A stretch of 64,000 bases of DNA from an uncultured Armatimonadetes bacterium (GTDB taxonomy: Bacteria > Armatimonadota > Hebobacteria > Hebobacterales > Hebobacteraceae). The stretch spans positions 3,936,001 to 4,000,000 of the forward strand of contig OY970296.1 in NCBI GenBank assembly GCA_963716175.1, in the 5' to 3' direction. The notes below the pieces were generated by a model. That model saw nothing but the letters and a program-made list of their open reading frames with translations, was not told where the DNA came from and did not search any database. The translations under genes were made by a program, and so were the position numbers. Every line of letters starts with the position of its first letter. Position 1 is the stretch's first letter. This document shows positions 2,235 to 54,967 of the stretch, piece after piece.

Positions 2235-2282
2235 CTAGGCCGCTTGCAGCGGGCGCGAGCACGCCTGCCGACAGCAGACCCC

Positions 2283-3395
2283 ATGAGGCGGATCACTCGC
2301 ATCTGGATCGTGCTTCTGGCGCTGCTCTTGGTGGCCCTGGCGCGCCGCCCGGCCTCTCCGCCCCAGCGCGAGCCGGAGCCGCCGCGGGTGCTCCCCAGCA
2401 TTCTGCTAACAGGGGACCTCCTGCTGGCCGATCGGGTCGGTCGGATGATCGAGCGCGAGGGTCCCCGGGCGCCACTAGCCGCCGTCCGCGAGACGCTGGC
2501 CGGCGCCGCGCTGACCATCGGTAACCTGGAATGCCCGCTCGCCACCACTGGCGAGCCGGCAAGCAAAGAATACGCCTTCCGGGGGCGGCCGGAGGCGGCC
2601 GACGCACTCCGCGAGGCCGGCTACGATATGATCGCATTGGCGAACAACCACACCATGGACTACGGCCCTGGGGCGCTGCTGGAGACGCTCGCGGCCCTGC
2701 GGGAACGCGGCCTGCATCCCATCGGGGCGGGGCGAGACGCGGAGGAGGCGCGGCGCTTCGCCGTGGTCGAGCTCGGATCGCCACCCATGAAGGTCGCCGT
2801 GCTCGCGTTCTCGAACATGCTGCCGACCAGCTTCTACGCTGGCCCGGGCCGGCCGGGAACCAACCCGGCACGCGGGGAGGCTATCCGCGCGCAGGTGGCT
2901 GCCGCCCGCGGTCAGGCCGAGCTGGTGATCGTGCTCTTCCACTGGGGAGATGAGCTATCTCCCGAGCCCTCCGCTAGCCAGCGCTATCTGGCTGGGCTAG
3001 CGGTAGCAGCGGGAGCGGATCTGGTGGTGGGCCATCATCCTCATGTGCTGCAGGGGTTGGAGCGGCGGGGGCAGGCACTGATCGCCTACAGCCTGGGCAA
3101 CTTCCTCTTCCCCAGCCGCGGCTCGGCGCGCCACACCATCATGCTGCGCTACTCGCCAGGGCGGGACGGCTCGGCGCGCGCGGAAGTGATCCCCTGCGTG
3201 ATCGAGGGATTCCGGCCGCGCCTGGCATCAGGGGAGGAGCGGGAGCAGATACTGGCCGAGCTGGGGGCCCGGTCGGAGCCGATGGGAACCAAGATCGGGC
3301 GCGACGGCAGCATTGACCTTTCCTCGGGGCCGACGATAGGCGACAAGGGGGAGAGGCGCCCAGACTTGGTTGACAAGGCCGGCCGGCCCCCGTAG
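2283..3395 (+). CDS. CapA/PGA_cap family metallophosphoesterase with N-terminal membrane anchor
   Basis: GD, GNLECP, LANNHTMDYG, FHWG, GHHPHVLQ, YSLGNF motifs; ATG at 2283 precedes a hydrophobic segment. Confidence 0.9.
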   Translation: MRRITRIWIVLLALLLVALARRPASPPQREPEPPRVLPSILLTGDLLLADRVGRMIEREGPRAPLAAVRETLAGAALTIGNLECPLATTGEPASKEYAFRGRPEAADALREAGYDMIALANNHTMDYGPGALLETLAALRERGLHPIGAGRDAEEARRFAVVELGSPPMKVAVLAFSNMLPTSFYAGPGRPGTNPARGEAIRAQVAAARGQAELVIVLFHWGDELSPEPSASQRYLAGLAVAAGADLVVGHHPHVLQGLERRGQALIAYSLGNFLFPSRGSARHTIMLRYSPGRDGSARAEVIPCVIEGFRPRLASGEEREQILAELGARSEPMGTKIGRDGSIDLSSGPTIGDKGERRPDLVDKAGRPP

Positions 3396-3398
3396 AAT
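3370..3398 (+). promoter_or_regulatory. Sigma70-type promoter for the FHA-MraY-like operon
   Basis: TTGACA-17 bp-TAGAAT ending 18 bp upstream of ATG 3417. Confidence 0.75.
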
Positions 3399-3416
3399 CT
3401 AGCCGGGGGATAGGGA

Positions 3417-3875
3417 ATGCCTCGCTGCCCGCGCTGCGACCAAGATACGGATGAAGAGAGCCGCTTCTGCAAGCACTGCGGCTACCCCACGCATGCTGCC
3501 ACCCAGGCCCTCGACGCGGATGACGACACCCTGATTTTGCGTCTCTTCGACGAGAGGCCAGAGGAAGCGCTAGCCAGGCGGGCGAGGATCTGGCTAATAG
3601 CTCAGGATGGCGAGCACGTGGCGCACACTTCCGAACTGCGGGATCAGGTCACGGTCATCGGCCGCCAGCCCGACTGCGCCATCTCGCTGCCGAGCAGCAC
3701 GGTGTCGCGGCGTCACGCCCAGATCCGCCAGGAGGGGAGCCGGTTCTTCCTGAGTGATCTGAGCAGCACCAATGGCACGCTGCTGAACCGAGAGCCGGTG
3801 ATCGGAGAAGAGCTGCTCCACGACCGGGACGAGATCGGGATCGGCATCTACCGGCTGATCTTCCGTTATTCTTAG
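3417..3875 (+). CDS. Zinc-ribbon plus FHA domain protein
   Basis: CPRC..FCKHCG ribbon; IGR, VSRRHA and DLSSTNGT FHA motifs. Confidence 0.9.
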   Translation: MPRCPRCDQDTDEESRFCKHCGYPTHAATQALDADDDTLILRLFDERPEEALARRARIWLIAQDGEHVAHTSELRDQVTVIGRQPDCAISLPSSTVSRRHAQIRQEGSRFFLSDLSSTNGTLLNREPVIGEELLHDRDEIGIGIYRLIFRYS

Positions 3876-3893
3876 CCCACCAAAGAAGCCGCC

Positions 3894-6026
3894 ATGGGCC
3901 AGTTGCTGGTCGTATTCTGCGTCGCCCTCGCGCTCGGGATCGCACTCTCCCGGACCTTTCGCCGCAGCCTGTTCTGGCTGACCTCAAGGGAGCGAAAGGT
4001 CGGCAAGGAGAGAATCCATCGCCTTTTCCCAAAGCCCCACCGGCCGCTGGGCGGCGGCCTGGCGATCATGCTGTCCGCCAGTATCGCCCTGCTGGTCGTG
4101 CCCCGCTTCTGGCATAACGCCCCGGGAACAACCGCGCTCTGGACGCTGGCGCTGGCCTGGGCCTTCGCCCTGATCGGGCTGGCGGATGACCTGAAGAAGA
4201 CCGCGGGCCGCGGTATGCATGAGCGACCCAAGTTCGCGCTGCAGGCGGCTGCGGCCTTGGCCTTTGGTGTGGCGCTATGGCGGTGGGGCGGCCCGCCCCC
4301 GGTGAACGTGCCCTTCGCGGCGCGCCCGGTCGAGTTTGGCCTGCTCTATGGCCCGTTTGTGGCGGTGGTGATCCTGGCGACCGCGAACGCGGTCAACCTC
4401 TCCGACGGAGTTGACGGGCTGGCCGGGGGCGCGGCGATGATCGCCCTGCTGGGGTTGGCGGGGGTGGGGCTGCTCGATCCCCAGCATGCCGTGGGATGGG
4501 TGTGCTGGCCCTTGATCGGGGCCATCGCTGGGTTCCTGGTCTACAACCTTCCGCCTGCTCGCCTCTTGATGGGGGACACCGGGGCGCTGGGCATAGGCGC
4601 GGCACTGGCGGCGCTGGGCATCTTCGCCGGCGTCGAGTTCTGGCTCTTGCTGCTGGCGGCCCCCTTCGTGGTGAACGCGGCCTCCGTGCTGGTGCAGATG
4701 GGCACAGTGCGCGGGCTGTGGCGGCTGGTGCGGCCGCTTCGCCACCGGAGCACGGAGACCGGACGGCCTTTCCTCTGCACCCCCCTGCACCACCACTTCC
4801 AGTGGCTGGGCTGGAATGACTGGCGGGTGCTGGCGCTGTTCTGGGGCCTGGGTGCGGTGATGTCGGCGTGGGCACTGCTCTCCCTCTGGTCCGGTCTGCT
4901 CTGGCTGATCGGGCTGCTCGGGCTGGCCGCTTTCCTGGTGGCGGCTGGGTTGCAGAAGCAGGTGCGGGCGAACTACTTCCTGGGATTGCTGCCCAGGCCT
5001 GCCGAGTCGTCGCTGCTGGTGCTCTATCGCGGCCTGCCGGTATCGGTGCTGGGCTGGCCGCTGTACCGGGTGCACTACGAGACCTCTATCACCGAGCAGA
5101 TGCTGGGCGGCGCTACCGCGGAGAGCATGCTCTGGCGGCCCATCACCGAAGTGGAGGCGCATGTGGTGCTGGGCAAAATCTACGCCGACCAGAAACTGCT
5201 CGAGCAGGCCCTGGCGGAGTGGGAGCAAGTGCCTACTCGCAATCTCCTGATCCGACCCAGTGTGATGCTGCGGCTGGCGCGAATCTACTACGGGCGGGAC
5301 CGGCTGCTGGAGGCGATCAAGCTCTGGGAGCAACTGCCACCCTCTCGCCTGGAGGAGATGCCGAACGTGCGGGAGGTGGTGCGAAGCGCGAAGCTCAGGC
5401 TGGCGGACCTGGCGAGCAAGGCCCACCGCCAGAGCATGCGGGCGACGGCCGCGGCGGGGCGCACGGGGGAAGACCCGGGGCGAATGGAGGGCTATCTGCT
5501 GGCCGCCCGCCGGCTCAACCAGGACCTGCTCTCTCTGCTGCTGTACGAGCGGGATAAGCTGAGAGGGCAGGCCGCCGACCCGCAGGCGGCGCGGGCCCGG
5601 CGGGAGCTGCTGCGGCGGACCCGCAACGCGGTATTAGCGCGAATGCGCGAGCTGGACGAATCCCTGGGAGAGCTGGCGCGGACCGTGCCCATGCCGCGCG
5701 CCGGAGCAACTGGCGCCGCCGGCCGACCCGGCCGAGCGGGCGGCCCAGGAGCTTCATCTCCCCCTGGAGGAGCTGACGCGGCTGATTGCGCCGGCAGGCC
5801 GGGGAGAGCCCGAGATCACCGGCGCCGCGGTGCACCCCAAGGCCTCTCGCAACAGCATCTTCCGCCTCCAGGTGAACTGGTCGGGGGCCGGGCCCGCGAG
5901 CGTGATCGCGAAGCGCTATGCTGCGGACCGCATCGCCTTCTTCTCCGCCTGCTACGGGCGGGAGAGAGGGGTGCTGGAGCTGCTCCACAGCTACGGAGGC
6001 GCGGTGCCCCAGGTCTACAGCGGTGA
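3894..6026 (+). CDS. MraY-like polyprenyl-phosphate transferase fused to TPR-like repeats (5' part of a frameshifted gene; genuine frame ends near 5695)
   Basis: GLADD, NAVNLSDGVDGL, MGDTGAL, PLHHHF motifs and many TM segments; TPR-like EAHVVLGKIY and LRLARIYY..LLEAIKLWEQ; low-complexity tail after about 5700. Confidence 0.85.
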   Translation: MGQLLVVFCVALALGIALSRTFRRSLFWLTSRERKVGKERIHRLFPKPHRPLGGGLAIMLSASIALLVVPRFWHNAPGTTALWTLALAWAFALIGLADDLKKTAGRGMHERPKFALQAAAALAFGVALWRWGGPPPVNVPFAARPVEFGLLYGPFVAVVILATANAVNLSDGVDGLAGGAAMIALLGLAGVGLLDPQHAVGWVCWPLIGAIAGFLVYNLPPARLLMGDTGALGIGAALAALGIFAGVEFWLLLLAAPFVVNAASVLVQMGTVRGLWRLVRPLRHRSTETGRPFLCTPLHHHFQWLGWNDWRVLALFWGLGAVMSAWALLSLWSGLLWLIGLLGLAAFLVAAGLQKQVRANYFLGLLPRPAESSLLVLYRGLPVSVLGWPLYRVHYETSITEQMLGGATAESMLWRPITEVEAHVVLGKIYADQKLLEQALAEWEQVPTRNLLIRPSVMLRLARIYYGRDRLLEAIKLWEQLPPSRLEEMPNVREVVRSAKLRLADLASKAHRQSMRATAAAGRTGEDPGRMEGYLLAARRLNQDLLSLLLYERDKLRGQAADPQAARARRELLRRTRNAVLARMRELDESLGELARTVPMPRAGATGAAGRPGRAGGPGASSPPGGADAADCAGRPGRARDHRRRGAPQGLSQQHLPPPGELVGGRARERDREALCCGPHRLLLRLLRAGERGAGAAPQLRRRGAPGLQR

Positions 6027-6840
6027 GCTGATGGCGGACCAGGCGATCCTGGTGATGCAGGACCTGGGAGACGAGACCCTGGCGGAACGGCTGGAGGTCT
6101 CCGAGGCGCCGGCGAAAGAGCAGTGGCTATACTCGGCAGTGATGGCGCTGGTGAACCTTCACGCCACCGCTCGCGCCCACCTGCGAGAGATCACCGCAGA
6201 GATTCAGAAGATTGACAAAGAGATGCTCGGCGGTGACTACTACTTCAACGCCCTGCACATCGCGCTGGACCGCATCGCCGCGCTGGGCGATAACGCGATC
6301 TCCGACTCGGAGTGGGACCGGATCGCGGAACAGGCTCGGCCCCTGGTTGATTTTCTATGTGACCGCCCGGCGGGATTCGTCCACTTCGAGTTCACCCCTC
6401 ACCACCTGCTGGTTACCGATGCTGGCCTGCGCATCTTCGATTTCGAGCAGGCTACGATCGGCCCGGCCGAGTTCGATCTGGCGGCCCTCCTCGCCCAACC
6501 CGAGAGCGATGTAGGGGCCGAGGGCTGGGAGAGTCTGGTTCGGCACTACGGTGCGGCGGCAGCGGAGGCCGGGCTGCCCGGGAGTGGGCCCGACCAGGCG
6601 CCGCGCGCGGTGGCCTATGCCGCCGCGTTCAAGTGCCTGGTCTACGCCGGCGCCGCGGCCAACTTCCTGGACAAGTTCGGAGGAGAGCATCATCTCCAGC
6701 GGTTCCACTACTACCTCCAGCGATGCCAGGCGATCATGAGCCGCTGGCCGCCTCTGCGACCGCTCGGGCGGTTGCTGGCCCCGCGGCTGCGGGCGGCGCG
6801 AGGCGCCACGCCGCGGTTGCGCACGGGTCGGCCCGCGTGA
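5830..6840 (+). CDS. APH/AmgK-like phosphotransferase domain (probable 3' part of the 3894 gene; frame looks coding from about 5701)
   Basis: VIAKRY, LVMQDLGDETL, FVHFEFTPHH, IFDFEQATIGPAEFDLAALL. Confidence 0.8.
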   Translation: MHPKASRNSIFRLQVNWSGAGPASVIAKRYAADRIAFFSACYGRERGVLELLHSYGGAVPQVYSGELMADQAILVMQDLGDETLAERLEVSEAPAKEQWLYSAVMALVNLHATARAHLREITAEIQKIDKEMLGGDYYFNALHIALDRIAALGDNAISDSEWDRIAEQARPLVDFLCDRPAGFVHFEFTPHHLLVTDAGLRIFDFEQATIGPAEFDLAALLAQPESDVGAEGWESLVRHYGAAAAEAGLPGSGPDQAPRAVAYAAAFKCLVYAGAAANFLDKFGGEHHLQRFHYYLQRCQAIMSRWPPLRPLGRLLAPRLRAARGATPRLRTGRPA

Positions 6841-6902: not shown

Positions 6903-6932
6903 TTGACGTCAGCTTGGCCGGACGGCTATAAT
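6903..6932 (+). promoter_or_regulatory. Sigma70-type promoter
   Basis: TTGACG-18 bp-TATAAT upstream of a GGGAGG RBS and GTG 6972. Confidence 0.7.
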
Positions 6933-9655: not shown

Positions 9656-11047
9656 TCAAGTCTTCGCCGAGTCGCGAGCCGCCGCCTCCCGCTGCTGCAC
9701 CAGCAGGGTGAGGCCGTCCTGGCCCACCACCTCGACTTCTTCTCCCTCCCCGATTTCGCCTGCCACCGCGCGCGCCCGCCACCGCTCTCCCTCCACCAGC
9801 ACCTCTCCCCTGGGGCTCAGCCTCCCCAGGGCCCGCCCGCGCTGGCGCAGCAGCCCCTCCTCGCCGGTCCGCACTTTGCGCATGTGGGCGCGCACCGCGG
9901 CCCCGGTGACGAAGAGGAAGAAGAGCGTCACCAGCAGGGCCATCACCACGATCACCTGCCAGGAGACCCGCAGCCAGGGGGCCGAGGACCCGGTCAGCAT
10001 GAGCGCGCCCATCACAAAGGAGATCACACCCCCGACTGTCAAGATGCCGTGAGACACCACTTTCACCTCCGCCAGAAAGAGCAGCATGGAGAAAACGATC
10101 AGCCCCACTCCCGCGTAGTTCACCGGCAGCACCGCCATGGAGTAGAGCGCCAGCAGCAGACAGAGCCCTCCGATCACGCCCGGCAGGATGGCGCCAGGAT
10201 TCTGCAGCTCGAACATAATCCCCAGGCCGGCCAGCACCAGCAGCACGAGCAGCAGGTTCGGGTTCCCCAGCACATGGAAAAAGCTCTCCCTGGCGGTAGG
10301 CGAGATCTCGGTCACAGCCGCGCCTGCGGTCTCCAGCGTCACCTCTCGCTTGCCAGGGAGCGACACCTTCCAGCCGTTGATCTTGGCGAGCAGATCCTTG
10401 GGGTCTTCGGCCAGCAGGTCAATCACGTGCAGGCGGAGGGCATCCTTCGCGGTGAGCGTGGCACTCTGCCGCACCGCCCTCGTAGCCCAGTCCGCGTTCC
10501 GCCCCCGCTCCTCCGCGATCACCCGGATCTGCTCCGCGAAGGCGTTGACCACTTTCTGCGTCATGATATCCGGGGAAACCGGAGCTTGCTTTCCCTCCTT
10601 GCCTCCCTCCGGCTGCTCGGGCTTGGGCAGGGAGAGCATCTCCACGGGATGAGCGGCGCCGATGGTAGTGGCCGGATGCATGGCGGCGATGTTCGCAGCC
10701 AGGGTGACGAAGGTGCCGGCCGAGAAGGCGGAGGCCCCTGCGGGGTAGACGTAGACGATGGTGGGGAGGGGGGAGTTGAGCAGGCTCTTGGTCATGTCCA
10801 TCATGGACTCCCCCAGGCCACCGGGGGTGTTCAGTAGAATCAGCAGCGCCTGCGCGTGCTGCCTTCGCGCCTCCGAGAGGGCCCGCTCCAGGTACTCCGC
10901 AGAGGGAACATCAATGGCGCCATCCAGCCGGATCATGGCCACCGGCGGCGGGGCCGTCCACGCCGAGCCTGCCACGCCGCCGGCGGGCAGACCCACCAGC
11001 AGACCGGCGAGGAGCAGGCCCAGCGCCCATTTCGACCATAGCCCCAT
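9656..11047 (-). CDS. nfeD: Long NfeD family protein (ClpP-class protease domain, TM region, OB fold)
   Basis: Signal peptide, LNTPGG, SAG, IGAAHPV, GEVLVEGERWRA; paired with SPFH gene; start placed at ATG 11047. Confidence 0.92.
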   Translation of the reverse strand: MGLWSKWALGLLLAGLLVGLPAGGVAGSAWTAPPPVAMIRLDGAIDVPSAEYLERALSEARRQHAQALLILLNTPGGLGESMMDMTKSLLNSPLPTIVYVYPAGASAFSAGTFVTLAANIAAMHPATTIGAAHPVEMLSLPKPEQPEGGKEGKQAPVSPDIMTQKVVNAFAEQIRVIAEERGRNADWATRAVRQSATLTAKDALRLHVIDLLAEDPKDLLAKINGWKVSLPGKREVTLETAGAAVTEISPTARESFFHVLGNPNLLLVLLVLAGLGIMFELQNPGAILPGVIGGLCLLLALYSMAVLPVNYAGVGLIVFSMLLFLAEVKVVSHGILTVGGVISFVMGALMLTGSSAPWLRVSWQVIVVMALLVTLFFLFVTGAAVRAHMRKVRTGEEGLLRQRGRALGRLSPRGEVLVEGERWRARAVAGEIGEGEEVEVVGQDGLTLLVQQREAAARDSAKT

Positions 11048-12361
11048 CAGAACTCCGATCGCTTTGGGCGCATCCAGGTGGTGGCCTGCCAGCAGGGCAG
11101 GCCCTGCTCGGCGTTGCCGAACTCGCCCGGCAGCTCGCCCCCTGACAGCCCGCGCAGGCCGCGAACCATCAGCAGCGCCACCAGGAAGAAAGGCAGCACA
11201 GCCCACGGCGCCTGCTCGCGGAAGAGATTCTCGGCCTTGGCATAGCCCAGCCAGATAACCCCGCCGGCGGCCGCGACGAGAGACTTGAGAATCTGCTTCG
11301 TCCGCCGCCGGGCGCGCAGAGGGCCCGCGCGCTTCTGCTCACCCCGCTCCACACAATCCAGGCACTGCAGCGCGACCCGGGGCCAGTCGCCAGTGGGGCT
11401 CTGCCGCAGGAAGCCCAGCTCGACGCGGGCATCGTCCCACTTCTCCTGCATGCGGAGGCTGCAGGCCAGCATGGAACGCACCGCGATGCGGGGGCCGCTG
11501 CTGCCGGCCTGGCGCTGGAAATGCTCCTCGGCGGCGGGGTAGTCCCGGAGATGATAGCGGGCCAGGCCCAGGGCCGTCTCCGCCCGGAAGTCGCCCGCCG
11601 CATGGTCGAGCGCCTGCTGCAAGGCCTCGGCCGCCTCCCGATTGGCGCGAGAACAAACAGGTCACCCCGAGATTCCACCAGGCATCGGTATCGTAAGGCT
11701 CGGCCTTTGCCGCGGCTCTGAAGACCTGTCGCGCGCCCTTGAACTTGCCGATCACCACATCGGCCCGGCCCAACTGCACCAGGGCGTGCGCCTCCCGGCC
11801 ATACTCGCGGGCGTCCCGTCGGTACCCTGTGATGGCCTCGGTATCGGCATCGGCGAAGCTGATCGCCAGCTCGGTGTAGGGATCAACGATAGCCTCCCGA
11901 GCCTGCTCCCGGGCCTGGCGCACCCGGCCCCAGTACTGCTCCACTCGGGCATCGTACACCACCAGAGGACGTTCCCGCAGCAGGCCCAGCTCGCGCAGTT
12001 CCTGGCGCGTCTCCCAGGCGCGCTGTCGGTCCGCGGCTTGCTCGCCGGCCGCCTGGAGGACCTGGCCGTCCCCTTCAGCCTTGGGCGGCTCGGGCCGGCC
12101 CCAGACATCGGTGACCAGCACCTCGCCCATGCCGGCAGGCACCGGTTCGGTCAGCAGAGAGCGGGCCTGCGACAGATCGGGTGCCGGTGGCGCACCCTCC
12201 TCGGCCTCGTCGCCCTCCGCCTCCGCGGTGGCGGGACCGACCGGCCTCGCTTCCTCCAGATCCCCGGTGGCTACGCCGCCAACGGCGACCGCGGCGCCGG
12301 CCGGGGGCCAGGCCACTTGCCCAGTCTCTCTCTCCTTTGGCTCCATCTCCACTTGGGTCAA
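11047..12361 (-). CDS. TPR-repeat protein with C-terminal TM pair (frameshift near 11645)
   Basis: ORF 11339..12361 (DAWWNLGV) continues in another frame as NREAAEALQQALDH..ALGLARYHLRDYPAAEEHF to stop 11047. Confidence 0.72.
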
Positions 12362-12473: not shown

Positions 12474-14120
12474 CTAGGTAGCGCTGGCCAGCACGCGCTG
12501 GAAGGCGGCTACGGCCTCGGGGTCATATTTCGTCCCGGCATGTGCCGCCAGCTCGGCCAGCGCCTCCGCCTCCGACCGTGCCGGTCGGTAGGGTCGGTCG
12601 GCGGTCATGGCGGCGACGACGTCGGCCACCGCCAGCACCCGCGCGCCCAGCGGAATCTCGTCTCCCATCAGACCCTCGGGATACCCGCTGCCGTCCAGTC
12701 TCTCATGATGATACCGCACTGCGGGCTTGATTGACCAGGGAAATTCCAGCGCATCGAGGATCTGCACCCCCACCAGCGGGTGGGTGCGGACGATCTCGGC
12801 CTCCAGCGGGGTGAGTGGCCCTGGCTTGAGCAGGATCATATCACTGATGCTGACCCGGCCAATGTCGTGAACTCGCGCGGCCACGCGAATTCCTTCCGCG
12901 ATGTCGTCTGGGCAGCCCATCTCCCTGGCAATGGCGAGCGCCAGCCGCGCCACCCGGTCGGCGTGGCCCCGGGCGTAGCGATCCCGGGCCTCCACCGCCC
13001 GCGTCAGCGCGCGTACCACCGCGTACATCGCCTGCCGGTCGGGCTGAGCCGAGGGCGGCGCGGCGGCGGTCCGCTCTTCCCCCGAGAGGTAGTCCTCGAG
13101 CCGCGCCCCCCGATCTCGCTGCCGCTCCGCCAGGAAGGAGGCGACCAGAGCATTGACGGGCCGCACGCCCTCATCGGCAGTCTCCGTCAGCCCCTCCACC
13201 ACCGCCGCCTGAGCGTCGCCAGAAAGCGCAGCCAGCGCGGCCTCTCGCGCCGGCTCCTTGAGCCGCTCCCAGAGCAGAGTCAAAACGGGCTCGAGTTGCT
13301 CGCGGGCGCGGGAGCGGATGTACCAGCGCTGCTCCTCGGTCAGCGGAATCTGCCCCGACTTGCATTCGAACACTTCGTAAGCCACCACCTGCAGGTAATA
13401 GGGCCAGCCCCCGGCCAGCTCCAGCAGGAAATCGCGCTCAGCCGAGAGGTCCACGCCAGACTCCTCGGCGAGAGCGCAGACGTGGCGCCAGGCCAGCTCC
13501 GGGTCGAGGCCGCGCAGGTGGACGATGGAGAAGAGGTCAGCGAAAGGCGAGCCGACCTCCCGCCCGGCGATCTCGATCTCGTGCAGCCGGCACTCGGTGG
13601 CAGTGACGAAGCATACCCCCGGGTGGGCAGCAAGGTGGCGCAGGGCGGAGAAAAAGTTGAGATCGAAGGCCGGGTTCCTGGCGGCCAGCTCCACCTCGTC
13701 CAGGAGGAAAACCAGGCGCTCGCCGGCCACCTCGATCTGCTCCAGGATCTCCTCCAGCTCGAGGAAGCTGAGCGCATCGCGGGCCTTGATGTGGGGCCAG
13801 ACCACGGTGATCTTGCCGGTGGTCTGGCGCGCCAGCTCCTGCACCATGAGGTGGAAGAACTGCTCGGCGCTGATGGTGCCCAGCCCTTCGAAGCTGAGAT
13901 GAACCGCGGCGTGCTGAGCCGGCGATAGCCCGTGGCCGGCCAGGGCGCTGGGGCGGGCGAGGTGGAGCAGAAGCGACGTCTTTCCTGACTTCACCGGCCC
14001 CACCAGGGAGCAATTCTGACTGCCCGCCACCAGGCGCACGACCTCTCGCGTCTCTCTGGGGCGCCCAAAGTAGAACCTGGCCTCCGTGATCGGGCCCCGG
14101 TTGAAGAATGGATTCGTCAT
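12474..14120 (-). CDS. STAND-like AAA ATPase fused to an HD-GYP phosphodiesterase
   Basis: NPF..FGR, Walker A GPVKSGKT, Walker B FLLDEVE, GGWPYYLQ; HDIGR and HHERLDGSGYP; ATG 14120 overlaps the upstream stop. Confidence 0.9.
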   Translation of the reverse strand: MTNPFFNRGPITEARFYFGRPRETREVVRLVAGSQNCSLVGPVKSGKTSLLLHLARPSALAGHGLSPAQHAAVHLSFEGLGTISAEQFFHLMVQELARQTTGKITVVWPHIKARDALSFLELEEILEQIEVAGERLVFLLDEVELAARNPAFDLNFFSALRHLAAHPGVCFVTATECRLHEIEIAGREVGSPFADLFSIVHLRGLDPELAWRHVCALAEESGVDLSAERDFLLELAGGWPYYLQVVAYEVFECKSGQIPLTEEQRWYIRSRAREQLEPVLTLLWERLKEPAREAALAALSGDAQAAVVEGLTETADEGVRPVNALVASFLAERQRDRGARLEDYLSGEERTAAAPPSAQPDRQAMYAVVRALTRAVEARDRYARGHADRVARLALAIAREMGCPDDIAEGIRVAARVHDIGRVSISDMILLKPGPLTPLEAEIVRTHPLVGVQILDALEFPWSIKPAVRYHHERLDGSGYPEGLMGDEIPLGARVLAVADVVAAMTADRPYRPARSEAEALAELAAHAGTKYDPEAVAAFQRVLASAT

Positions 14121-17100
14121 CGTGGTCCCCCCTGCCTCAACCAGAGTGAGAGCAGGCCCACTTGCAGAACGCACTGGCCGGCCTGCTCTGCTACCAGCTC
14201 CGAGGCTGCTAACGCTCTCACTGCTCTTCGCACGCCAGCGGAATCGAGACCCGTAACCCGCCTCAGTTCGTCAACGCTGAGCCCGCCTTTGCCGAGGCTA
14301 CGGTCGCCGGGCCTGGACTGGTGGCCGGCAAGCGCGCCGAGGATCGGCTGCCCCTGGGGGCCAGCGCTCTCCCAGAGGTATCGGAGATGGATGTCGCCCT
14401 GCTCTACCACGTCGGCCGCCGCCTCCTCGACCAGGCTCACGCGAACCGCCGCCTCCTGCAACTGGACACAGCGCTCAACCAGGCGGTAGCCCAGGAGCTG
14501 GAGGAGATAGGGGTTCCTCCCGGTGAGCGTGATGGCCCGGGCCAGCGCGGCCTCTTCGCAGACTACGCCCAATCTGCCCAAGGGAACGCGGATCACCTGC
14601 TCGGCCACCTCGGGCTTGAGGCATCCGATCCTGCGGTGGGTGGCGAGATTGAGAAGAAAGGACCAGTGCTCGCCTGCCAGCTCCTCCAGCCGATCACTGC
14701 CAGAGAGCACGAAGCTGATGTTGCGGCTGTGTTGGATCAGGTGGCGGAGCTGAGAGAATACCTCCGGGCCCAGCACCCCGGTTCGCACCTTCTGCTCCAG
14801 GTCGTCGAACTCGTCCAGCAGCAAGACCACCCGGCCTTCCAGGCGGTCGGCTGCCTCCTGCACCTGCTCGGGCCCGCTGCTATAGCTGTCATAGGGCGCC
14901 GCGCCAGCCTCCCTGACCATGGGCTCCGAGGCCTTGGGTAGCGCCCGCCGCGCCAACTCCTGGAAGAAGGCGCCTGTGTCGTCCACCAGCATCCCTTGCA
15001 CATCAATGAAGGTGGGACGACACCACTGCGCCAGCCTGGCCTCCAGCCGCTTCAGCAAGCTGGTCTTGCCGGTGCGCCTCTGGCCCACCAGCACCACCAC
15101 GTTGCCCTCGTCGCCGCTGGTCAGGGCCCGCTCGACAAAGGCGATCTCGGCCGCGCGGCCAAAGAACATGGCGCTGTCTGCCGCCAGGGGCTTGCCCACG
15201 ACGTAGGGGTTGGCAACGGCCATGAGCGGAGTAGGCCGCACCGCCTGTACGCGGTCGGCGATCGCCTGACTGTGCCAGCCTAAGGCATCGCGAAACCGGA
15301 CCAGTCCGCGAACAGTGCGGGTCCCGGGCCGGGTGTGCCTGACCTCTATGCCTACCTGCGCTTCCTCGCCGGGCCTGAGGCAGGCAATGTCCTGCACCGG
15401 CGCTCCCTCCATCCCCACTAGCAGGTCCCAGGCGCGGCCTTGGCCCGCGTTCTCGATGCTCATGAGCAGCAGGGAGCCAGGCCCGGCGACCAGATGCTGC
15501 GAGACAAGAGCCACGCGCAGGTCGGCCGGCGCGGCCTCCTGCGCCACCCGGTCTACCAGCAGCTCCCAGTTGTGCAGGATTGGAAGCACCAGGGGCCAGT
15601 AGGCCCGTTCCCGGTCGTGGGTTGGACCCGCCGCGAGCGCGGCGCGGGCACGCGCCAGGTAGCGGTCGCGGGAGAGGCGAGAGCGCGCTCGCACCGCCTG
15701 CTTCATCATCTTGGCTGCGGCCACCACAAAGGAGACTGCGTCGAAACTGGCAGCGGGACAGGTCGCGGCCTGGCGCACCACGTCCTCGGGAGTGGCGGCG
15801 TCAGCGCAGTCCCCCAGCCAGGACAGGACCTCGGCGAGATCATCGCGCTCGACGAAGCGTAATGCCAGGGACAGATCGCGCAGCGCCTCGCCCAGGTCCT
15901 CTCCTCCCTCTAGGGCCCGCGCGGCGCAGCGCGCGAGCTCAGCCACCTCTGGGGTGCGGGCGCACCGCGCCACCTGCCAGATCACGCTGGTGGTCGCCGC
16001 CCGCAGGGGCCACCAGTAGAAGACCACCGGCAGCCGCTTCGGGTCTTGGTCGAAGGCAGCGGCAATGCCTTCGGCCGCGGCCAATGCCGTGGCCTGGTTG
16101 CTGGCGAGCGAAACCAGCTGCTCCCACATGGGGCCGGGCAGGTCGAGCATGTGCCGACAGAGAGTGCGGGTGGCGGCGAGGGCAGCCGGCGCATGCCGGT
16201 CTCCCGTTAGGCGAAGCAGCAGGTCCACCTCGGGCACGCCTCGGGGCTCCAGAGAGGCGGCGGCCGCGGCCCGCACCATCGGCTCGCGGTCCACACTTGC
16301 CGCCAGAAGGGCGCCGTGGACACCCACCGCGCCCAGGGACCTGATCGCCGCCGCCCGGACCATGACTGCTCGATCGCCGGCCAACTGCTGCAGGAGATTG
16401 GCCACTCCCTCCCCTCTCGGCCCTTCGACTCCCCCCCGGCCAGGCCTGGCGAGGGCTTCTGCCACCGCGGCACGGACCTCCGGGGAGCGGTCCGCGGCCA
16501 GACGGGAGAGCAAGGCAGGTGGCGCAAGCTCTCGATGTGCCGCAAGCACCCCGGCCGCGGCCGCCCTCACCGCTGCGCTGCGGTCCCGGGTCAGCGGCGG
16601 GAGGCAAGCTGCTGCCCAGCGCCAACCCTCTGCGGCCCACCTACCAAGGGCAGGAACAACGAGGGCGCGAACCTGAGGATCGCGGTCGGCGAGGCAGAGC
16701 TGAGCGGCGCGGGACAGGCCGCGGCCAGAGAGGTGCGGCAAAGCTGGGGCCACCGCCTTCCTTCCGGCTGCCCCGGACTCGGCCAGGCGGAGCAGAAGGC
16801 GGGCCGCGATGGCAGGCCGAACGGGTGATAGGTCCACCGCGCCGAAGGCGACGCCGGAGAGAACGCGCTGGTCTGCGCTGGCTAGAGCAGTGTCGAGCCA
16901 GGAAAGCGCTCGCCGGATGGCCGCACCCCTCGCCTGGCCCAGTGCGGCGGCCGCCGCCCAGCGCATCTCGCCATTGGGGTCGGTGAGCCGCCGCCCCAGT
17001 TCATCCACCGCCCAGGCCGAGCCGTCCCCTGCCTCCTCCTCCATCCCGGACAGAGCGGCCAGGCGCACGGTGCGCTCCGGGTGGCGGCCCAGCGCCAGCA

Positions 17101-17434
17101 GCTCTTCTCGAAAGCGGCCCTGCTGCTTGCCCAAAGCCATTCCCGCAGGGAGCGAGGAGGTGGGATCGCCTGCTGTGACCAGATCAATCACTAGCTTCGG
17201 CTGTGAGCAGGCGAGCTGGCGCAGCCCGGGAACGGCTGCCTTGGGAGGAAGGGAGAGCCGGCCTTGAGCGACATCGAAGAGGAAACGGCGCGCCCACCCC
17301 CCGCGCGCCGCCAGTCCGCCCAGCTCCTGCCAGGCGGCAACCGCTCTGTTTGCGTCGCTACCCCAGACTGCCCGGCACACCGCCCTCAGGTCCAAGCCTT
17401 CCGGAGCCTGTCCTCTACCCCGTGGCCGGCGCAT
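14117..17434 (-). CDS. HEAT-repeat protein with C-terminal STAND-like AAA ATPase and winged helix
   Basis: Repeated DxxPxVRAAAA HEAT units; NPYVVG..FFGR, GQRRTGKT, LLLDEFD, GRNPYLLQ; RBS before ATG 17434. Confidence 0.85.
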   Translation of the reverse strand: MRRPRGRGQAPEGLDLRAVCRAVWGSDANRAVAAWQELGGLAARGGWARRFLFDVAQGRLSLPPKAAVPGLRQLACSQPKLVIDLVTAGDPTSSLPAGMALGKQQGRFREELLALGRHPERTVRLAALSGMEEEAGDGSAWAVDELGRRLTDPNGEMRWAAAAALGQARGAAIRRALSWLDTALASADQRVLSGVAFGAVDLSPVRPAIAARLLLRLAESGAAGRKAVAPALPHLSGRGLSRAAQLCLADRDPQVRALVVPALGRWAAEGWRWAAACLPPLTRDRSAAVRAAAAGVLAAHRELAPPALLSRLAADRSPEVRAAVAEALARPGRGGVEGPRGEGVANLLQQLAGDRAVMVRAAAIRSLGAVGVHGALLAASVDREPMVRAAAAASLEPRGVPEVDLLLRLTGDRHAPAALAATRTLCRHMLDLPGPMWEQLVSLASNQATALAAAEGIAAAFDQDPKRLPVVFYWWPLRAATTSVIWQVARCARTPEVAELARCAARALEGGEDLGEALRDLSLALRFVERDDLAEVLSWLGDCADAATPEDVVRQAATCPAASFDAVSFVVAAAKMMKQAVRARSRLSRDRYLARARAALAAGPTHDRERAYWPLVLPILHNWELLVDRVAQEAAPADLRVALVSQHLVAGPGSLLLMSIENAGQGRAWDLLVGMEGAPVQDIACLRPGEEAQVGIEVRHTRPGTRTVRGLVRFRDALGWHSQAIADRVQAVRPTPLMAVANPYVVGKPLAADSAMFFGRAAEIAFVERALTSGDEGNVVVLVGQRRTGKTSLLKRLEARLAQWCRPTFIDVQGMLVDDTGAFFQELARRALPKASEPMVREAGAAPYDSYSSGPEQVQEAADRLEGRVVLLLDEFDDLEQKVRTGVLGPEVFSQLRHLIQHSRNISFVLSGSDRLEELAGEHWSFLLNLATHRRIGCLKPEVAEQVIRVPLGRLGVVCEEAALARAITLTGRNPYLLQLLGYRLVERCVQLQEAAVRVSLVEEAAADVVEQGDIHLRYLWESAGPQGQPILGALAGHQSRPGDRSLGKGGLSVDELRRVTGLDSAGVRRAVRALAASELVAEQAGQCVLQVGLLSLWLRQGGPR

Positions 17435-17657
17435 CTGCCCCTCTCGCCGAGGGCCAATGAGGACCCCAAATCGGCACGAGCGACTCAGCGTCTTAATACC
17501 ACATGACCAGGCCCTTATCCTTCTCGCGGACTCCGATTCGCCGCCAGGATGCCCAAATCCAGGGGAACGACCCGCGGCTGAAGGCTTCCCCCTTCGCCAA
17601 AGGCTTCGCCGGGCGTGTCGGCATGGCCGCGCAGCAGCAAGGTCGGGCACAAGGATA

Positions 17658-17686
17658 TTGCCTCGGGCGGCGGATTGTGGTAGAAT
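17658..17686 (+). promoter_or_regulatory. Sigma70-type promoter with extended -10
   Basis: TTGCCT-17 bp-TAGAAT, TG at the extended position, upstream of ATG 17743. Confidence 0.6.
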
Positions 17687-17742
17687 CACATGGGCTATTG
17701 TTTGGGGGAGCGCGCATATCAGTTAGACGAGGAGTGCGAGGG

Positions 17743-52657: not shown

Positions 52658-54112
52658 GTGCCTACGTTCACACCAGTCATCCGCGAAATCCCCTGTCCCT
52701 TGTCCGCAGTCGGTGCCTTCTCCGCCATCGCCGACCGACCTGGCAGTATCTTGCTCGAAGGCAGCACCAGGGAGCCCCGGCTTGGTCGTTACTCCTTCCT
52801 CGCCTGCGACCCGTTCCTGACTTTCCGCAGCAAAGGGCCGCGAGTAGAGATCGCGTCGGCCCAGGGCAGAGAGGACCGCGAAGGCAATCCCTTCGCGGTC
52901 CTAGGCGAGCTGCTCGCCGACTGTCGCGTGGCGCGCCCGGCGGGGGCGCCTTCTCTCATCGCCGGCGCCATCGGCTATCTCGCCTATGACCTGGGGCGGT
53001 TCGTGGAGCGCATCCCGGAGACCAGCCGGGACGATGTGCCGGTGGCCGACTGCCACCTCGGGTTCTACGGTGTGGTGGTGACGATAGATCATGTGGCCGA
53101 GCGCGCCTGGATCAGCGGCATCGGGGCGCCGGAAGTAGACCCGCGGGCGGCCCAGCGGTTGGCGGAGGCGCGGGTGGAGGGGATGAGCCAGATGATGGCA
53201 GGGGCAAGCCCCTGCCCAACAAGGAAGCCGTCCCAGCGGCCAGCGGGCAGCGGGCATGCCCTTCAGATGACCTCCAACTTCAGCCGGGAGGATTACCTGC
53301 GGGCGATTGGGCGGGCGAAAGAGTACATTGCGGCCGGCGACATCTACCAGGTGAACCTCTCGCAGCGCCTCTCTGCTCCCCTGGCCACCACTCCGTTTGA
53401 TCTCTACTGTCGCCTGAGCAGAGATAATCCCGCCCCCTTCTCGGCCTACTTCGAGACTCCGGAGGCAGCGATCGTGAGCTGCTCGCCGGAGCGATTCCTG
53501 CAGGTTCGCGGGCGGGAGGTCGAGACTCGCCCCATCAAGGGCACTCGCCCGCGCGGGCAAACGCCGGAGCAAGATGCCGCCCTCGCCGCCGAGCTGGTGG
53601 CGAGCGAGAAGGATCGCGCCGAGAACGTGATGATCGTGGACCTGGAGCGCAATGACATCGGTCGCACCTGCGAGTTTGGCTCCGTTCACGTGCCGGAGCT
53701 GTTTGCGCTGGAGAGCTACGCCACGGTGCACCACCTGGTCTCCACGGTGCGAGGCCGGCTCCGCCCCGGGAACACCGCGCTCGACTGCCTGCGCAACTGC
53801 TTCCCCGGAGGCTCCATCACGGGCGCGCCGAAAGTGCGCGCCATGGAGATCATCGAGGAGATGGAGCCGACCCGGCGCGGAGTCTACACCGGGGCCATCG
53901 GCTATCTCTGCTTCTCCGGCGATATGGATGTGAACATCGTCATCCGCACCCTGGTGGTGAAGGACGGCACCGCCTACTTCCAGGTCGGGGGGGCGATAGT
54001 GGCCGACTCTGACCCGGAGGGGGAGTACCAGGAGACGGTGGACAAAGCGCGGGCGCTGGCCGGCGGGCTGGCCGCGGAGGCCGGCGCGGAGACGATCCAG
54101 TGGCCGGGATAG
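52658..54112 (+). CDS. pabB: Aminodeoxychorismate synthase component I
   Basis: GRYSF, GDIYQVNLSQR, SPERFL, TRPIKGT, AENVMIVDLERND, FPGGSITGAPK. Confidence 0.9.
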   Translation: MPTFTPVIREIPCPLSAVGAFSAIADRPGSILLEGSTREPRLGRYSFLACDPFLTFRSKGPRVEIASAQGREDREGNPFAVLGELLADCRVARPAGAPSLIAGAIGYLAYDLGRFVERIPETSRDDVPVADCHLGFYGVVVTIDHVAERAWISGIGAPEVDPRAAQRLAEARVEGMSQMMAGASPCPTRKPSQRPAGSGHALQMTSNFSREDYLRAIGRAKEYIAAGDIYQVNLSQRLSAPLATTPFDLYCRLSRDNPAPFSAYFETPEAAIVSCSPERFLQVRGREVETRPIKGTRPRGQTPEQDAALAAELVASEKDRAENVMIVDLERNDIGRTCEFGSVHVPELFALESYATVHHLVSTVRGRLRPGNTALDCLRNCFPGGSITGAPKVRAMEIIEEMEPTRRGVYTGAIGYLCFSGDMDVNIVIRTLVVKDGTAYFQVGGAIVADSDPEGEYQETVDKARALAGGLAAEAGAETIQWPG

Positions 54113-54967
54113 CCTGGGTTAACGGGAAGCTGCTGGCCCCCGAGGAACCCGCGATCGCTGCGGCCGATCGCGGCTTCCTCTACGGAGAGGGCCTGTTCGA
54201 GACCATGCGCGCCTATCGGGGCCGGATCTTCCGCCTGGGACGCCACCTCGACCGCCTGATCGCCGCCGCGCCGGAGCTGGGCTTCGTTCCTCCCCGCCGG
54301 GAACTGCTGGAGCGAGCGACCGCGGAGGCACTCGCGGCCTCGGGTATGAGCGAGGCGGCGGTACGGTTGACGGTGACACCGGGCCCGGTGCAGGCCGCTT
54401 CCCCCACCATAGTGGTCCTCGTCCGCGACCTCGCGCTGCCGCCGGCGGAGTGCTACCAGACGGGCTGCCGCGCGGTCACGGTCCCTGCGGCCCAGGCGGC
54501 AGGAACCCCACTGAGGAGGACCAAGTCGCTCAACTACCTGGACAAGCTGCTGGCGCAGCGCGGGGCCGCGCAGAGCCGGCGCGCACGAGGCCATCATCAT
54601 TGATCCTGACGGCGGCGCGGTTGAGGGCGGAATGCGCAACGTGTTCGCGGTGATCGCGGGCGGCCTGGTGACCCCTCCTCTCTCCCGCGGCCTCCTGCCC
54701 GGAGTGACACGCGAGGCCATCCTCGAGATCGCAGAGGGGATGGGCCTCCGGAGCCAGCAGCGGGAGCTCCCGGTGAGCGAACTCCGTGGTGCAGACGAGT
54801 GTTTCCTCACCAGCTCCGTGGCCGAGATCCTGCCGGTGGCGGAGATTGATGGGCAGCGGCTGGGAGGAGCGGCCCCCGGGCCGTTGACGAGGAAGCTGAC
54901 CGCAGGCTATCGGGCGCTGGTGGCGGAGGAATCGGGCTTCGGGGCGGAAGGGGACCGGTCCGGGTAG
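54100..54967 (+). CDS. Class IV aminotransferase / aminodeoxychorismate lyase (frameshift near 54570)
   Basis: DRGFLYGEGLFETMR and KSLNY in one frame; HEAIII..EG..RNVF, LLPGVTR, ECFLTSS in the next. Confidence 0.85.

What the first reader, a model, noticed from the sequence alone, without database searches (positions are those of the whole stretch)
3370..6840. FHA protein co-transcribed with an MraY-TPR-AmgK-like (pseudo)kinase fusion
Seen: a near-consensus promoter precedes a Zn-ribbon-FHA gene, and 18 bp later an MraY homolog begins. It keeps all catalytic motifs (GLADD, NLSDGVDGL, MGDTG, HHH) and continues into TPR-like repeats. A single frame change near 5695 links it to an APH-fold domain, giving about 980 aa. 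In that domain the HxDxxxxN catalytic loop reads HFEFTPHH (D>E, N>H) while DFE is kept. Known: MraY is normally a stand-alone membrane enzyme in the dcw cluster, AmgK is an APH-fold MurNAc/GlcNAc kinase of peptidoglycan recycling, and FHA binds pThr. Inference: a second MraY whose lipid-carrier loading is gated by a sugar- or nucleotide-sensing pseudokinase and a phospho-signalling adaptor. I do not know this architecture from the literature.
Basis: partly seen in the sequence, partly recalled or inferred. Interest (0 to 1): 0.75.

Follow-up and report, generated by a model that had tools for sequence, protein, structure and literature searches.

The report
MraY copy fused to kinase-like domain
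In a group of mostly uncultured Armatimonadota bacteria, a second copy of the cell-wall enzyme and antibiotic target MraY is fused to a kinase-like domain and usually sits behind a phospho-binding adaptor gene, which suggests an undescribed way to control loading of the cell-wall lipid carrier.

Summary
The fusion is real. Relatives encode MraY-like + extra membrane helix + TPR-like/helical linker + APH-fold domain as one ~980-aa chain: 73 of 75 homologues read through the junction, and 19 of 20 genome loci hold the three parts in one frame. The window's break is one extra base near 5694, probably an assembly error; a 98.6%-identical relative is intact.

The family is confined to Armatimonadota-like genomes and lies outside dcw clusters. 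Three carrier genomes have two mraY annotations. The MraY domain keeps its catalytic residues but has lost the uracil-stacking Phe (0 of 78) and scores below the MraY cut-off. The kinase fold is AmgK-related, not AmgK. Its catalytic Asp is Glu in 77 of 77, while the ATP/metal site is invariant, so it is not a decayed pseudokinase. The Zn-ribbon-FHA gene and its promoter precede the fusion in 10 of 15 informative loci and are absent in one subclade.

Best reading: a second, regulated lipid-carrier transferase gated by a nucleotide-binding kinase fold and an FHA adaptor, analogous to mycobacterial MviN-FhaA but built from other parts. The architecture is shown; the mechanism is inferred (~0.45).

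The parts
3370..3398 (+). sigma70-type promoter TTGACA-17-TAGAAT for the FHA-fusion operon
   Evidence: the same hexamers with 17-18 nt spacing precede the FHA gene in 8 of 10 FHA-bearing loci
3417..3875 (+). Zn-ribbon - linker with invariant Thr38 (DDT) - FHA protein, 152 aa; GR, SRxH and NGT phosphothreonine-binding motifs intact
   Evidence: OdhI model 68.8 bits, cut-off 200; C4, C7, C18, C21, T38, G82, R83, S97, R98, H100, N119, G120, T121 invariant in 80 of 80 aligned
3894..4892 (+). MraY-like polyprenyl-phosphate sugar-1-phosphate transferase domain; DDD and HHH kept, F262-equivalent is Leu, TM9b-HHH loop 32 residues long
   Evidence: fold match 9zno_A Z 38.1, rmsd 2.2, 301 aligned
4893..4967 (+). 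extra hydrophobic helix after the MraY core, inferred to return the chain to the cytoplasm
   Evidence: helix 331-355 in the model; mean 1.75 K/R just after it against 0.36 before it
4971..5138 (+). three-stranded beta-rich segment plus short helix
   Evidence: strands 358-397 in the model
5139..5684 (+). about two TPR-like helical hairpins (the most conserved region, mean consensus 0.80), then three long helices
   Evidence: Atlas look-alikes are TPR proteins, at lead-level score 0.85 only
5691..5697 (+). frame break in this copy: one extra base at 5694/5695 in the variable linker, probably an assembly error
   Evidence: relatives are in frame
5728..6840 (+). APH/choline-kinase-fold domain: SRN loop, beta3 Lys, alphaC Glu, HFExxP(H/N), DFEQxT; Glu in place of the catalytic Asp
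   Evidence: model pLDDT 95.6; best fold 3csv_A Z 28.3, rmsd 2.6, 315 aligned
6903..6932 (+). promoter-like site of the next gene (DUF3084); probable 3' limit of the two-gene unit

Best explanation
SHOWN: a two-gene unit encodes a Zn-ribbon-FHA protein and one ~980-aa membrane protein (MraY-like transferase, extra helix, TPR-like/helical spacer, APH-fold domain). It is a conserved family of Armatimonadota-like genomes, separate from ordinary stand-alone MraY.

INFERRED: (1) It is a second copy beside an ordinary mraY. (2) The membrane domain is an active Mg-dependent transferase that moves a phospho-sugar(-peptide) from a UDP-sugar to the polyprenyl-phosphate carrier, with weakened or altered donor binding. 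(3) The cytoplasmic kinase fold binds ATP and metal but does not act as a standard Asp-base sugar kinase. It works as a nucleotide/ligand switch that sets transferase activity through the helical spacer. (4) Where present, the FHA protein docks on a threonine phosphorylated by a host Ser/Thr kinase and adds a second input. This is the logic of mycobacterial MviN-pseudokinase-FhaA, applied at the carrier-loading step. The break in the window copy is most likely a sequence error.
For: Fusion: 70 of 75 hits to the linker region are 924-1034 aa, and 73 of 75 read from the TPR part into the kinase. Among the 150 best library-wide representatives, all 18 with His-x-Glu are fusions (11 full-length) or fragments; none is a full-length stand-alone protein. 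19 of 20 genome loci have the three parts in one frame; the 20th is cut by a contig end. No stand-alone member of this MraY subfamily appeared among shorter proteins; full-length hits were 29-46% identical by best local alignment. Fusion MraY domains form one side of a 100-support branch (27 vs 38 rows, quick tree).

Second copy: K01000 = 2 in 8 of 13 Hebobacteria MAGs, including the three that gave loci L006, L008 and L009, and in 0 of 64 Zipacnadia (PMC10290634 supplement).

Transferase: D95, D96, K99, K110, N165, D171, N215, Q265, H296, H297 in 78 of 78; D168, D225, H298 in 77 of 78. These match the DDD motif, uridine pocket and loop E residues of A. aeolicus MraY.

Kinase fold: S648, R649, N650, K670, H827, E829, D846, E848, Q849, T851, D858, K910 in 77 of 77.

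FHA: adjacent in 10 of 15 informative loci. It is kept where the upstream neighbours differ (L001, L011) or both flanks differ (L010, L015). PrkC-type kinases are annotated in 13 of 13 Hebobacteria MAGs. Precedent: MviN-FhaA (PMC12599244).
Against: No activity, binding or expression data exist. F262 becomes L/I/H (78 of 78, against F/Y in 105 of 111 stand-alone MraYs), T75 becomes L/M, and the TM9 Glu becomes N/D/S. All 13 fusions tested score under the TIGR00445 cut-off (149-188 vs 192), so donor and activity may differ from MraY. An invariant active site fits an enzyme as well as a sensor. FHA is missing beside all 5 informative loci of the HFExTP[GS]N subclade, so it is not essential to the family. 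In the full-length model the domains' relative placement is unresolved (pTM 0.49). The second K01000 gene in the MAG table was not inspected.
Confidence: 0.45

Rival explanations
1. Bifunctional salvage enzyme. The kinase fold is catalytically active, using Glu as base or SelO-like nucleotidyl transfer. It activates a recycled wall sugar or muropeptide, which the attached transferase loads on the lipid carrier.
For: The closest annotated relatives are AmgK-like (NF045759 is the best kinase model; 3csv is the best fold). The active site is invariant in 77 of 77. Hebobacteria MAGs have anmK in 8 of 13 but murQ in 0 of 13, and the table has no row for amgK, murU or mupP, which leaves a gap in recycling. 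Methylthioribose kinase has Ser at the Asn position, and SelO lacks the catalytic Asp yet AMPylates (PMC12599244). An altered base pocket could suit a different nucleotide donor.
Against: The motifs typical of the AmgK-like group (HRD..SRN, DFQD) are all replaced. The sister stand-alone family has Ser/Gly/Ala at the base position (17 of 150 representatives), which suggests the Asp was lost before the fusion arose. No recycling genes are conserved nearby (only L001 has a BadF-type kinase and nanE upstream). De novo murA is annotated in 12 of 13 MAGs. Missing KO rows are weak evidence.
Confidence: 0.27
2. Membrane sensor with the signal running the other way. The MraY-like domain binds or slowly turns over carrier lipid or UDP-sugar and reports to the kinase fold and FHA protein, which act on other targets.
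For: The uracil-capping Phe and T75 are lost, and loop E is fixed at 32 residues against 19-27. An ordinary mraY is probably present. The membrane domain - helical spacer - kinase fold layout resembles a receptor (inference). The FHA protein has an invariant linker Thr, recalling the GarA/OdhI self-binding switch (recalled; the paper search found nothing).
Against: The whole catalytic set (three Asp, HHH, two Lys) is kept, which is more than binding alone would need. The kinase fold is of the small-molecule APH type.
Confidence: 0.15
3. Defence module against uridine-nucleoside MraY inhibitors: an inhibitor-insensitive MraY joined to an APH domain that binds or modifies the drug.
For: F262 and T75 are inhibitor contacts in MraY structures (PMC6606608). 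APH-type enzymes (CapP, Cpr17) give producers self-resistance to capuramycins (PMC6384614).
Against: It sits in a housekeeping neighbourhood (xseB-dxs upstream, DUF3084-RuvX downstream in most close loci) and is confined to one phylum. No plasmid record covers 80% of it (0 of 38 matches). The catalytic Asp is absent, and the FHA link would be unexplained.
Confidence: 0.05
4. In the organism of this window the gene is truly broken or split (a pseudogene, or two proteins with a kinase start at GTG 5830). This concerns the copy, not the family.
For: The window sequence has the extra base; reads were not available.
Against: A 98.6%-identical relative is intact. Two other genes in the window are split the same way: the TPR gene near 11650, against intact L001/L006 homologues, and the aminotransferase near 54570. 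Breaks in other homologues fall at unrelated places (P0006, P0026, P0049). The GTG 5830 position is never Met in homologues (V48, I6, R6, L4 of 70), and a start there would cut off modelled helices and most of the first strand.
Confidence: 0.12

Closest known systems
MraY (phospho-MurNAc-pentapeptide transferase; TIGR00445, PDB 4j72/9zno)
   Same: Fold (Z 38.1), DDD motif, K121/K133 equivalents, GxD uridine loop, Q305, HHH.
   Different: Fused to ~650 aa of extra chain; F262>L/I/H, T75>L/M, TM9 Glu>N/D; longer loop E; below family cut-off in 13 of 13; outside the dcw cluster; apparently a second copy.
AmgK MurNAc/GlcNAc kinase (NF045759) and the AmgK-like structure 3csv
   Same: APH/choline-kinase fold; best family model and best structural match.
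   Different: HRD>HFE, SRN>P(H/G)(H/N), DFQD>DFEQ; 23-61 bits vs cut-off 550; separate branch; no murU neighbour.
Mycobacterial MviN(MurJ)-pseudokinase + FhaA
   Same: A lipid II-cycle membrane protein fused to a kinase-fold domain and linked to an FHA protein (PMC12599244 and bioRxiv 2024.08.13.607006 passages).
   Different: Flippase there, transferase here; Hanks-type fold with blocked ATP site there, APH fold with intact ATP/metal residues here; binding shown there, only gene linkage here. An analogy; no homology is claimed.
GarA/OdhI-type FHA proteins
   Same: Small stand-alone FHA with a conserved N-terminal linker Thr; OdhI is the best NCBIfam model.
   Different: 68.8 bits vs cut-off 200; N-terminal Zn ribbon; linked to a membrane transferase. 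The self-binding mechanism is recalled, not tested.
Unnamed stand-alone ~360-aa APH-fold family with HNSxSPx(N/H) / DFET
   Same: Shares the SRN loop, beta3 Lys and (F/Y)RRE; sister to the fusion kinase domain (100 support, FastTree).
   Different: No membrane domain; Ser/Gly/Ala, not Glu, at the base position; context not examined.

Membership tests
MraY (TIGR00445) | PNPT fold with DDD catalytic motif and HHH loop | tested here: met
MraY (TIGR00445) | score above the equivalog cut-off 192 | tested here: not met
   149-188 bits in 13 of 13 fusions; two stand-alone controls 268 and 308
MraY (TIGR00445) | uridine pocket K70, G194, L195, D196, F262 and adjacent T75 | tested here: not met
   K/G/D kept; F262 never Phe/Tyr (0 of 78); T75 is L/M
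MraY (TIGR00445) | stand-alone gene in a dcw/mur cluster | tested here: not met
   fused; no mur/fts gene among 72 ORFs scanned from the loci (a subset chosen near the fusions) or among the window ORFs
MraY (TIGR00445) | makes lipid I from UDP-MurNAc-pentapeptide and C55-P | not testable with these tools
   needs an assay
WecA/TagO | closer to the WecA model than to MraY | tested here: not met
   TIGR02380 24-36 bits vs mraY 149-188; a separate K02851 gene in 11 of 13 Hebobacteria MAGs
AmgK | HRD-x-x-x-x-N and DFQD motifs; score above cut-off | tested here: not met
APH/choline kinase superfamily | PKL fold with beta3 Lys, alphaC Glu and DFG-type Asp | tested here: met
   PF01636 above gathering score
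Pseudokinase (sequence definition) | lacks at least one of beta3 Lys, catalytic Asp, DFG Asp | tested here: met
   Asp is Glu in 77 of 77; definition from PMC12599244
Pseudokinase (functional definition) | no phosphotransfer activity | not testable with these tools
   the invariant site leaves activity open
MviN-pseudokinase/FhaA-type module | FHA binds a phosphothreonine on the fused protein | not testable with these tools
   phosphorylation cannot be modelled here; only gene linkage is shown
MviN-pseudokinase/FhaA-type module | MurJ flippase with Hanks-type ActPs3 domain | tested here: not met
   the domains are Glycos_transf_4 and APH

The most novel reading that the evidence does not exclude
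The protein is a one-chain salvage route to lipid-linked wall precursors. The Asp-less kinase fold does SelO-like nucleotidyl transfer (or Glu-based phosphorylation) on a recycled MurNAc or muropeptide. It hands a non-standard NDP-sugar to an MraY whose base pocket has been remodelled, bypassing AmgK-MurU and the Mur ligases, under FHA control.
Probability: 0.1. Interest if true: 0.9.

Novelty: new variant of a known kind. Interest (0 to 1): 0.64.

Why it matters
MraY is a central wall-synthesis enzyme and antibiotic target, and it is generally treated as a stand-alone protein (established knowledge). A natural family with a fused, strictly conserved kinase-fold domain and a linked FHA adaptor would show control applied at the carrier-loading step, arrived at independently of the MviN-FhaA system. 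It also offers two clean biochemical questions in one protein: what a PNPT transferase does without the uracil-stacking Phe, and what an APH fold does with Glu in place of the catalytic Asp. The hosts are mostly uncultured, so tests must be heterologous.

Tried and rejected
Programmed frameshift: rejected. Relatives are in frame and I saw no slippery heptamer at 5676-5720 (by eye).

Separate kinase gene from GTG 5830: rejected.

FHA adjacency as mere hitch-hiking in a housekeeping block: weakened, because the pair and its promoter survive changes of flanks, but not excluded.

Complex prediction of FHA with residues 350-968: no answer (scores 0.12 and 0.02, mark 0.32). It is not used either way.

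Atlas search for the kinase domain gave hypothetical/APH clusters (Poribacteria, Latescibacterota, Chloroflexota). For the linker it gave lead-level TPR hits only. The beta segment and long helices were not folded or searched alone.

I looked for a source showing His at the catalytic-loop Asn position in active APH/MPH enzymes. Searches did not show it, so that point rests on recall.

The careful MraY tree did not finish; the quick tree is quoted. It has no WecA/GPT outgroup, so it does not give an origin.

The exact-sequence cluster look-up could not be made. Metagenome and viral contig collections were not searched.

Literature searches for the architecture listed nothing that describes it, judged from titles and abstracts. 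The library lacks most subscription papers.


Full report
OBSERVATION. A TTGACA-17-TAGAAT promoter at 3370-3398 precedes a 152-aa Zn-ribbon-FHA gene (3417-3875). After 18 nt comes an ORF whose first ~335 residues are Glycos_transf_4. Codon-position GC changes phase near 5650-5710, and the next frame (open 5638-6840) is an APH-family domain. Residue numbers below are those of the intact relative P0001.

IS THE FUSION REAL? Yes. A search with the linker region alone gave 75 proteins (the best 8000 word-sharing candidates were scored; lengths 331-1054). Seventy are 924-1034 aa and carry PF00953. Of the other five, two are N-terminally cut TPR+kinase chains, one runs into the kinase and then breaks, and two end in the linker. 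So 73 of 75 read through the junction. P0001 differs from the window at 14 of 978 positions and is intact; the window has one extra base at 5694/5695. An unrestricted search of 1.84 billion representatives with the kinase domain gave 15 hits at E<=1e-30. Among the best 150, all 18 with His-x-Glu are fusions (11 full-length; one of these, P0082, is partial at the N-terminus) or fragments, down to 32% identity. In the GTDB species set, 39 stretches matched the patterns and 20 were confirmed. Nineteen have MraY, TPR and the start of the kinase in one frame; L020 is cut by the contig end, and L011 has its own break inside the kinase. A search for shorter relatives of the membrane domain found only fragments of the family, then other stand-alone MraY-like proteins at 29-46% identity by best local alignment. 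The window holds two more split genes, so an indel error in the assembly is the simplest cause of the break. Reads were not available.

DISTRIBUTION AND CONTEXT. Of the 20 loci, 11 are titled Armatimonadota or Ca. Hebobacteria, 7 'uncultured bacterium' and 2 'Bacillota'. The last two are ~71% identical, and L002 is syntenic, so the label may be wrong (inference). Close loci sit in a housekeeping block: acc-nusB-xseA-TPR-xseB-dxs, then FHA-fusion, then DUF3084-RuvX. No mur/fts genes were found among the 72 locus ORFs scanned or in the window. In the KEGG table of PMC10290634, K01000 is 2 in 8 of 13 Hebobacteria MAGs (1 in three, 0 in two; MAGs 52-91% complete), including the three behind L006, L008 and L009. 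It is never 2 in 64 Zipacnadia. This supports a second copy, but I did not see the second gene. The same table gives wecA in 11, prkC-type kinases in 13, murA in 12, anmK in 8 and murQ in 0 of the 13, and no row for amgK, murU or mupP.

FHA LINK. The FHA gene lies directly upstream in 10 of 15 loci with enough upstream DNA (L002, L004, L012, L013 and L020 are uninformative). It is absent in L014 and L016-L019 by tblastn and by an HMM scan of six frames. Those five all carry the HFExTP[GS]N motif; proteins with that motif form one subclade in both trees. The pair survives changed neighbours in L001, L010, L011 and L015, and the promoter hexamers are identical in 8 of the 10. Nineteen contig lengths are shared between the 75 fusion and 120 FHA hit rows, which is indirect support. 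The FHA keeps its phosphothreonine-binding residues and an invariant linker Thr38 (80 of 80). The resemblance to the GarA/OdhI self-binding switch is recalled; the OdhI model scores 69 of 200 bits.

MEMBRANE DOMAIN. The fold is MraY (Z 38.1, rmsd 2.2, 301 aligned; DPAGT1 Z 29.5). The three catalytic Asp, both Lys, the GxD loop, N255, Q305 and HHH equivalents are kept in 77-78 of 78 (numbering). Family-wide changes against 111 nearest stand-alone MraYs are these: the uracil-capping F262 is L62/I14/H2 (stand-alone F101/Y4); T75 is L/M (T100); the TM9 Glu is N/D/S (E106); and the Gln-to-HHH span is 32 residues in all 78 (19-27). All 13 fusions tested fall below the MraY cut-off and far above WecA. 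One extra hydrophobic helix, followed by basic residues, should put the rest in the cytoplasm, on the side of the active site (inference). I read this as an active transferase with altered donor binding, and I do not file it as MraY.

KINASE FOLD. The domain models well (pLDDT 95.6) and best matches 3csv (Z 28.3), corramycin phosphotransferase (25.9) and NahK (21.1). In 77 intact fusions (P0006 dropped as frameshifted) the SRN loop, K670, H827, E829, P832, D846, E848, Q849, T851, D858, K910 and G916 are invariant; E687 is E76/D1, and position 834 is H65/N12. The region is as conserved as the membrane domain (0.66 vs 0.68 mean consensus). It is a pseudokinase by the sequence definition, but not a decaying one. 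It is not AmgK. It groups with a stand-alone ~360-aa family that has Ser/Gly/Ala at the base position, apart from HRD-type AmgK-like proteins (FastTree, midpoint root, 55 rows). Loss of the Asp may therefore predate the fusion.

MECHANISM. Best reading (0.45): a second carrier-loading transferase whose rate is set by a nucleotide- and metal-binding kinase fold through the TPR/helical spacer, with an FHA adaptor adding a phospho-signal in most lineages. Rivals: a bifunctional salvage enzyme (0.27; helped by anmK without murQ/amgK/murU), a membrane sensor signalling outward (0.15), and a nucleoside-antibiotic defence module (0.05). Separately, the window copy may be truly broken (0.12). Shown: architecture, conservation, linkage. 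Inferred: activity, donor, direction of control, FHA binding. Domain arrangement is unresolved (pTM 0.49).

COMPARISON AND NOVELTY. It works like mycobacterial MviN, whose pseudokinase is phosphorylated by PknB and recruits FhaA. It is not a member of that family: the membrane enzyme and kinase class differ, and the ATP site is intact here. Four searches for the architecture listed no paper describing it; I judged from listings and abstracts, and subscription journals are mostly missing. Databases name members simply 'phosphotransferase' or MraY. I rate it a new variant of a known kind: an undescribed family made of known domains.

PAPERS SEEN. PMC6606608, PMC12599244, PMC6384614, PMC6109786 and bioRxiv 10.1101/2024.08.13.607006: passages only. 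PMC10290634: passages plus rows of supplementary files 2 and 8. Gee et al. 2012 was not read, only cited through those papers. Other papers: search listings. bioRxiv supplements were closed; they do not bear on a claim here.

VERDICT. Interest 0.64.

Noticed in passing
proteins P0089, P0091-P0094, P0096, P0097, P0099, P0100, P0109, P0118 and others: An unnamed stand-alone ~360-aa APH-fold family with HNSxSPx(N/H)/DFET: no catalytic Asp but Lys, Glu and DFE kept; sister to the fusion's kinase domain. A candidate for non-standard chemistry in its own right.
   Followed up: partly
window 11047-12361 (-), break near 11650: TPR gene split across two frames; homologues in L001 and L006 are single ORFs of 431 and 414 aa.
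   Followed up: yes
window 54013-54964 (+): Class IV aminotransferase split into two frames at profile position ~131; another probable indel error.
   Followed up: partly
window 12474-17689 (-): Adjacent genes for a HEAT-repeat + STAND-like ATPase (about 1100-1190 aa) and a STAND-like ATPase + HD-domain protein (566 aa), next to a TPR gene; the ATPase-HD gene is conserved in L001 and L003. Looks like a signalling module.
   Followed up: no
L012 and L013: Two copies of the fusion, 69% identical, on different contigs of one MAG: paralogues or bin contamination.
   Followed up: partly
L001:246-2000; L010:6928-14246: A BadF-type sugar kinase and nanE lie upstream of the FHA gene in L001; a glycosyltransferase/YfhO cluster lies downstream of the fusion in L010. 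Each is seen in one locus only.
   Followed up: no
window 2244-3395 (+): PGA_cap (CapA-like) metallophosphoesterase directly upstream; present in L006, L008 and L009, absent in L003, L005 and L007. Its predicted 3' end overlaps the promoter.
   Followed up: partly
L014, L016, L017, L018 near the fusion start: The FHA-less loci share a TGGACG-17/18-TATxAT promoter-like site.
   Followed up: no
PMC10290634 supplementary file 2: Hebobacteria MAGs have anmK (8 of 13) without murQ (0 of 13), and the table has no amgK/murU/mupP row: their route for MurNAc-6-phosphate is unexplained.
   Followed up: partly
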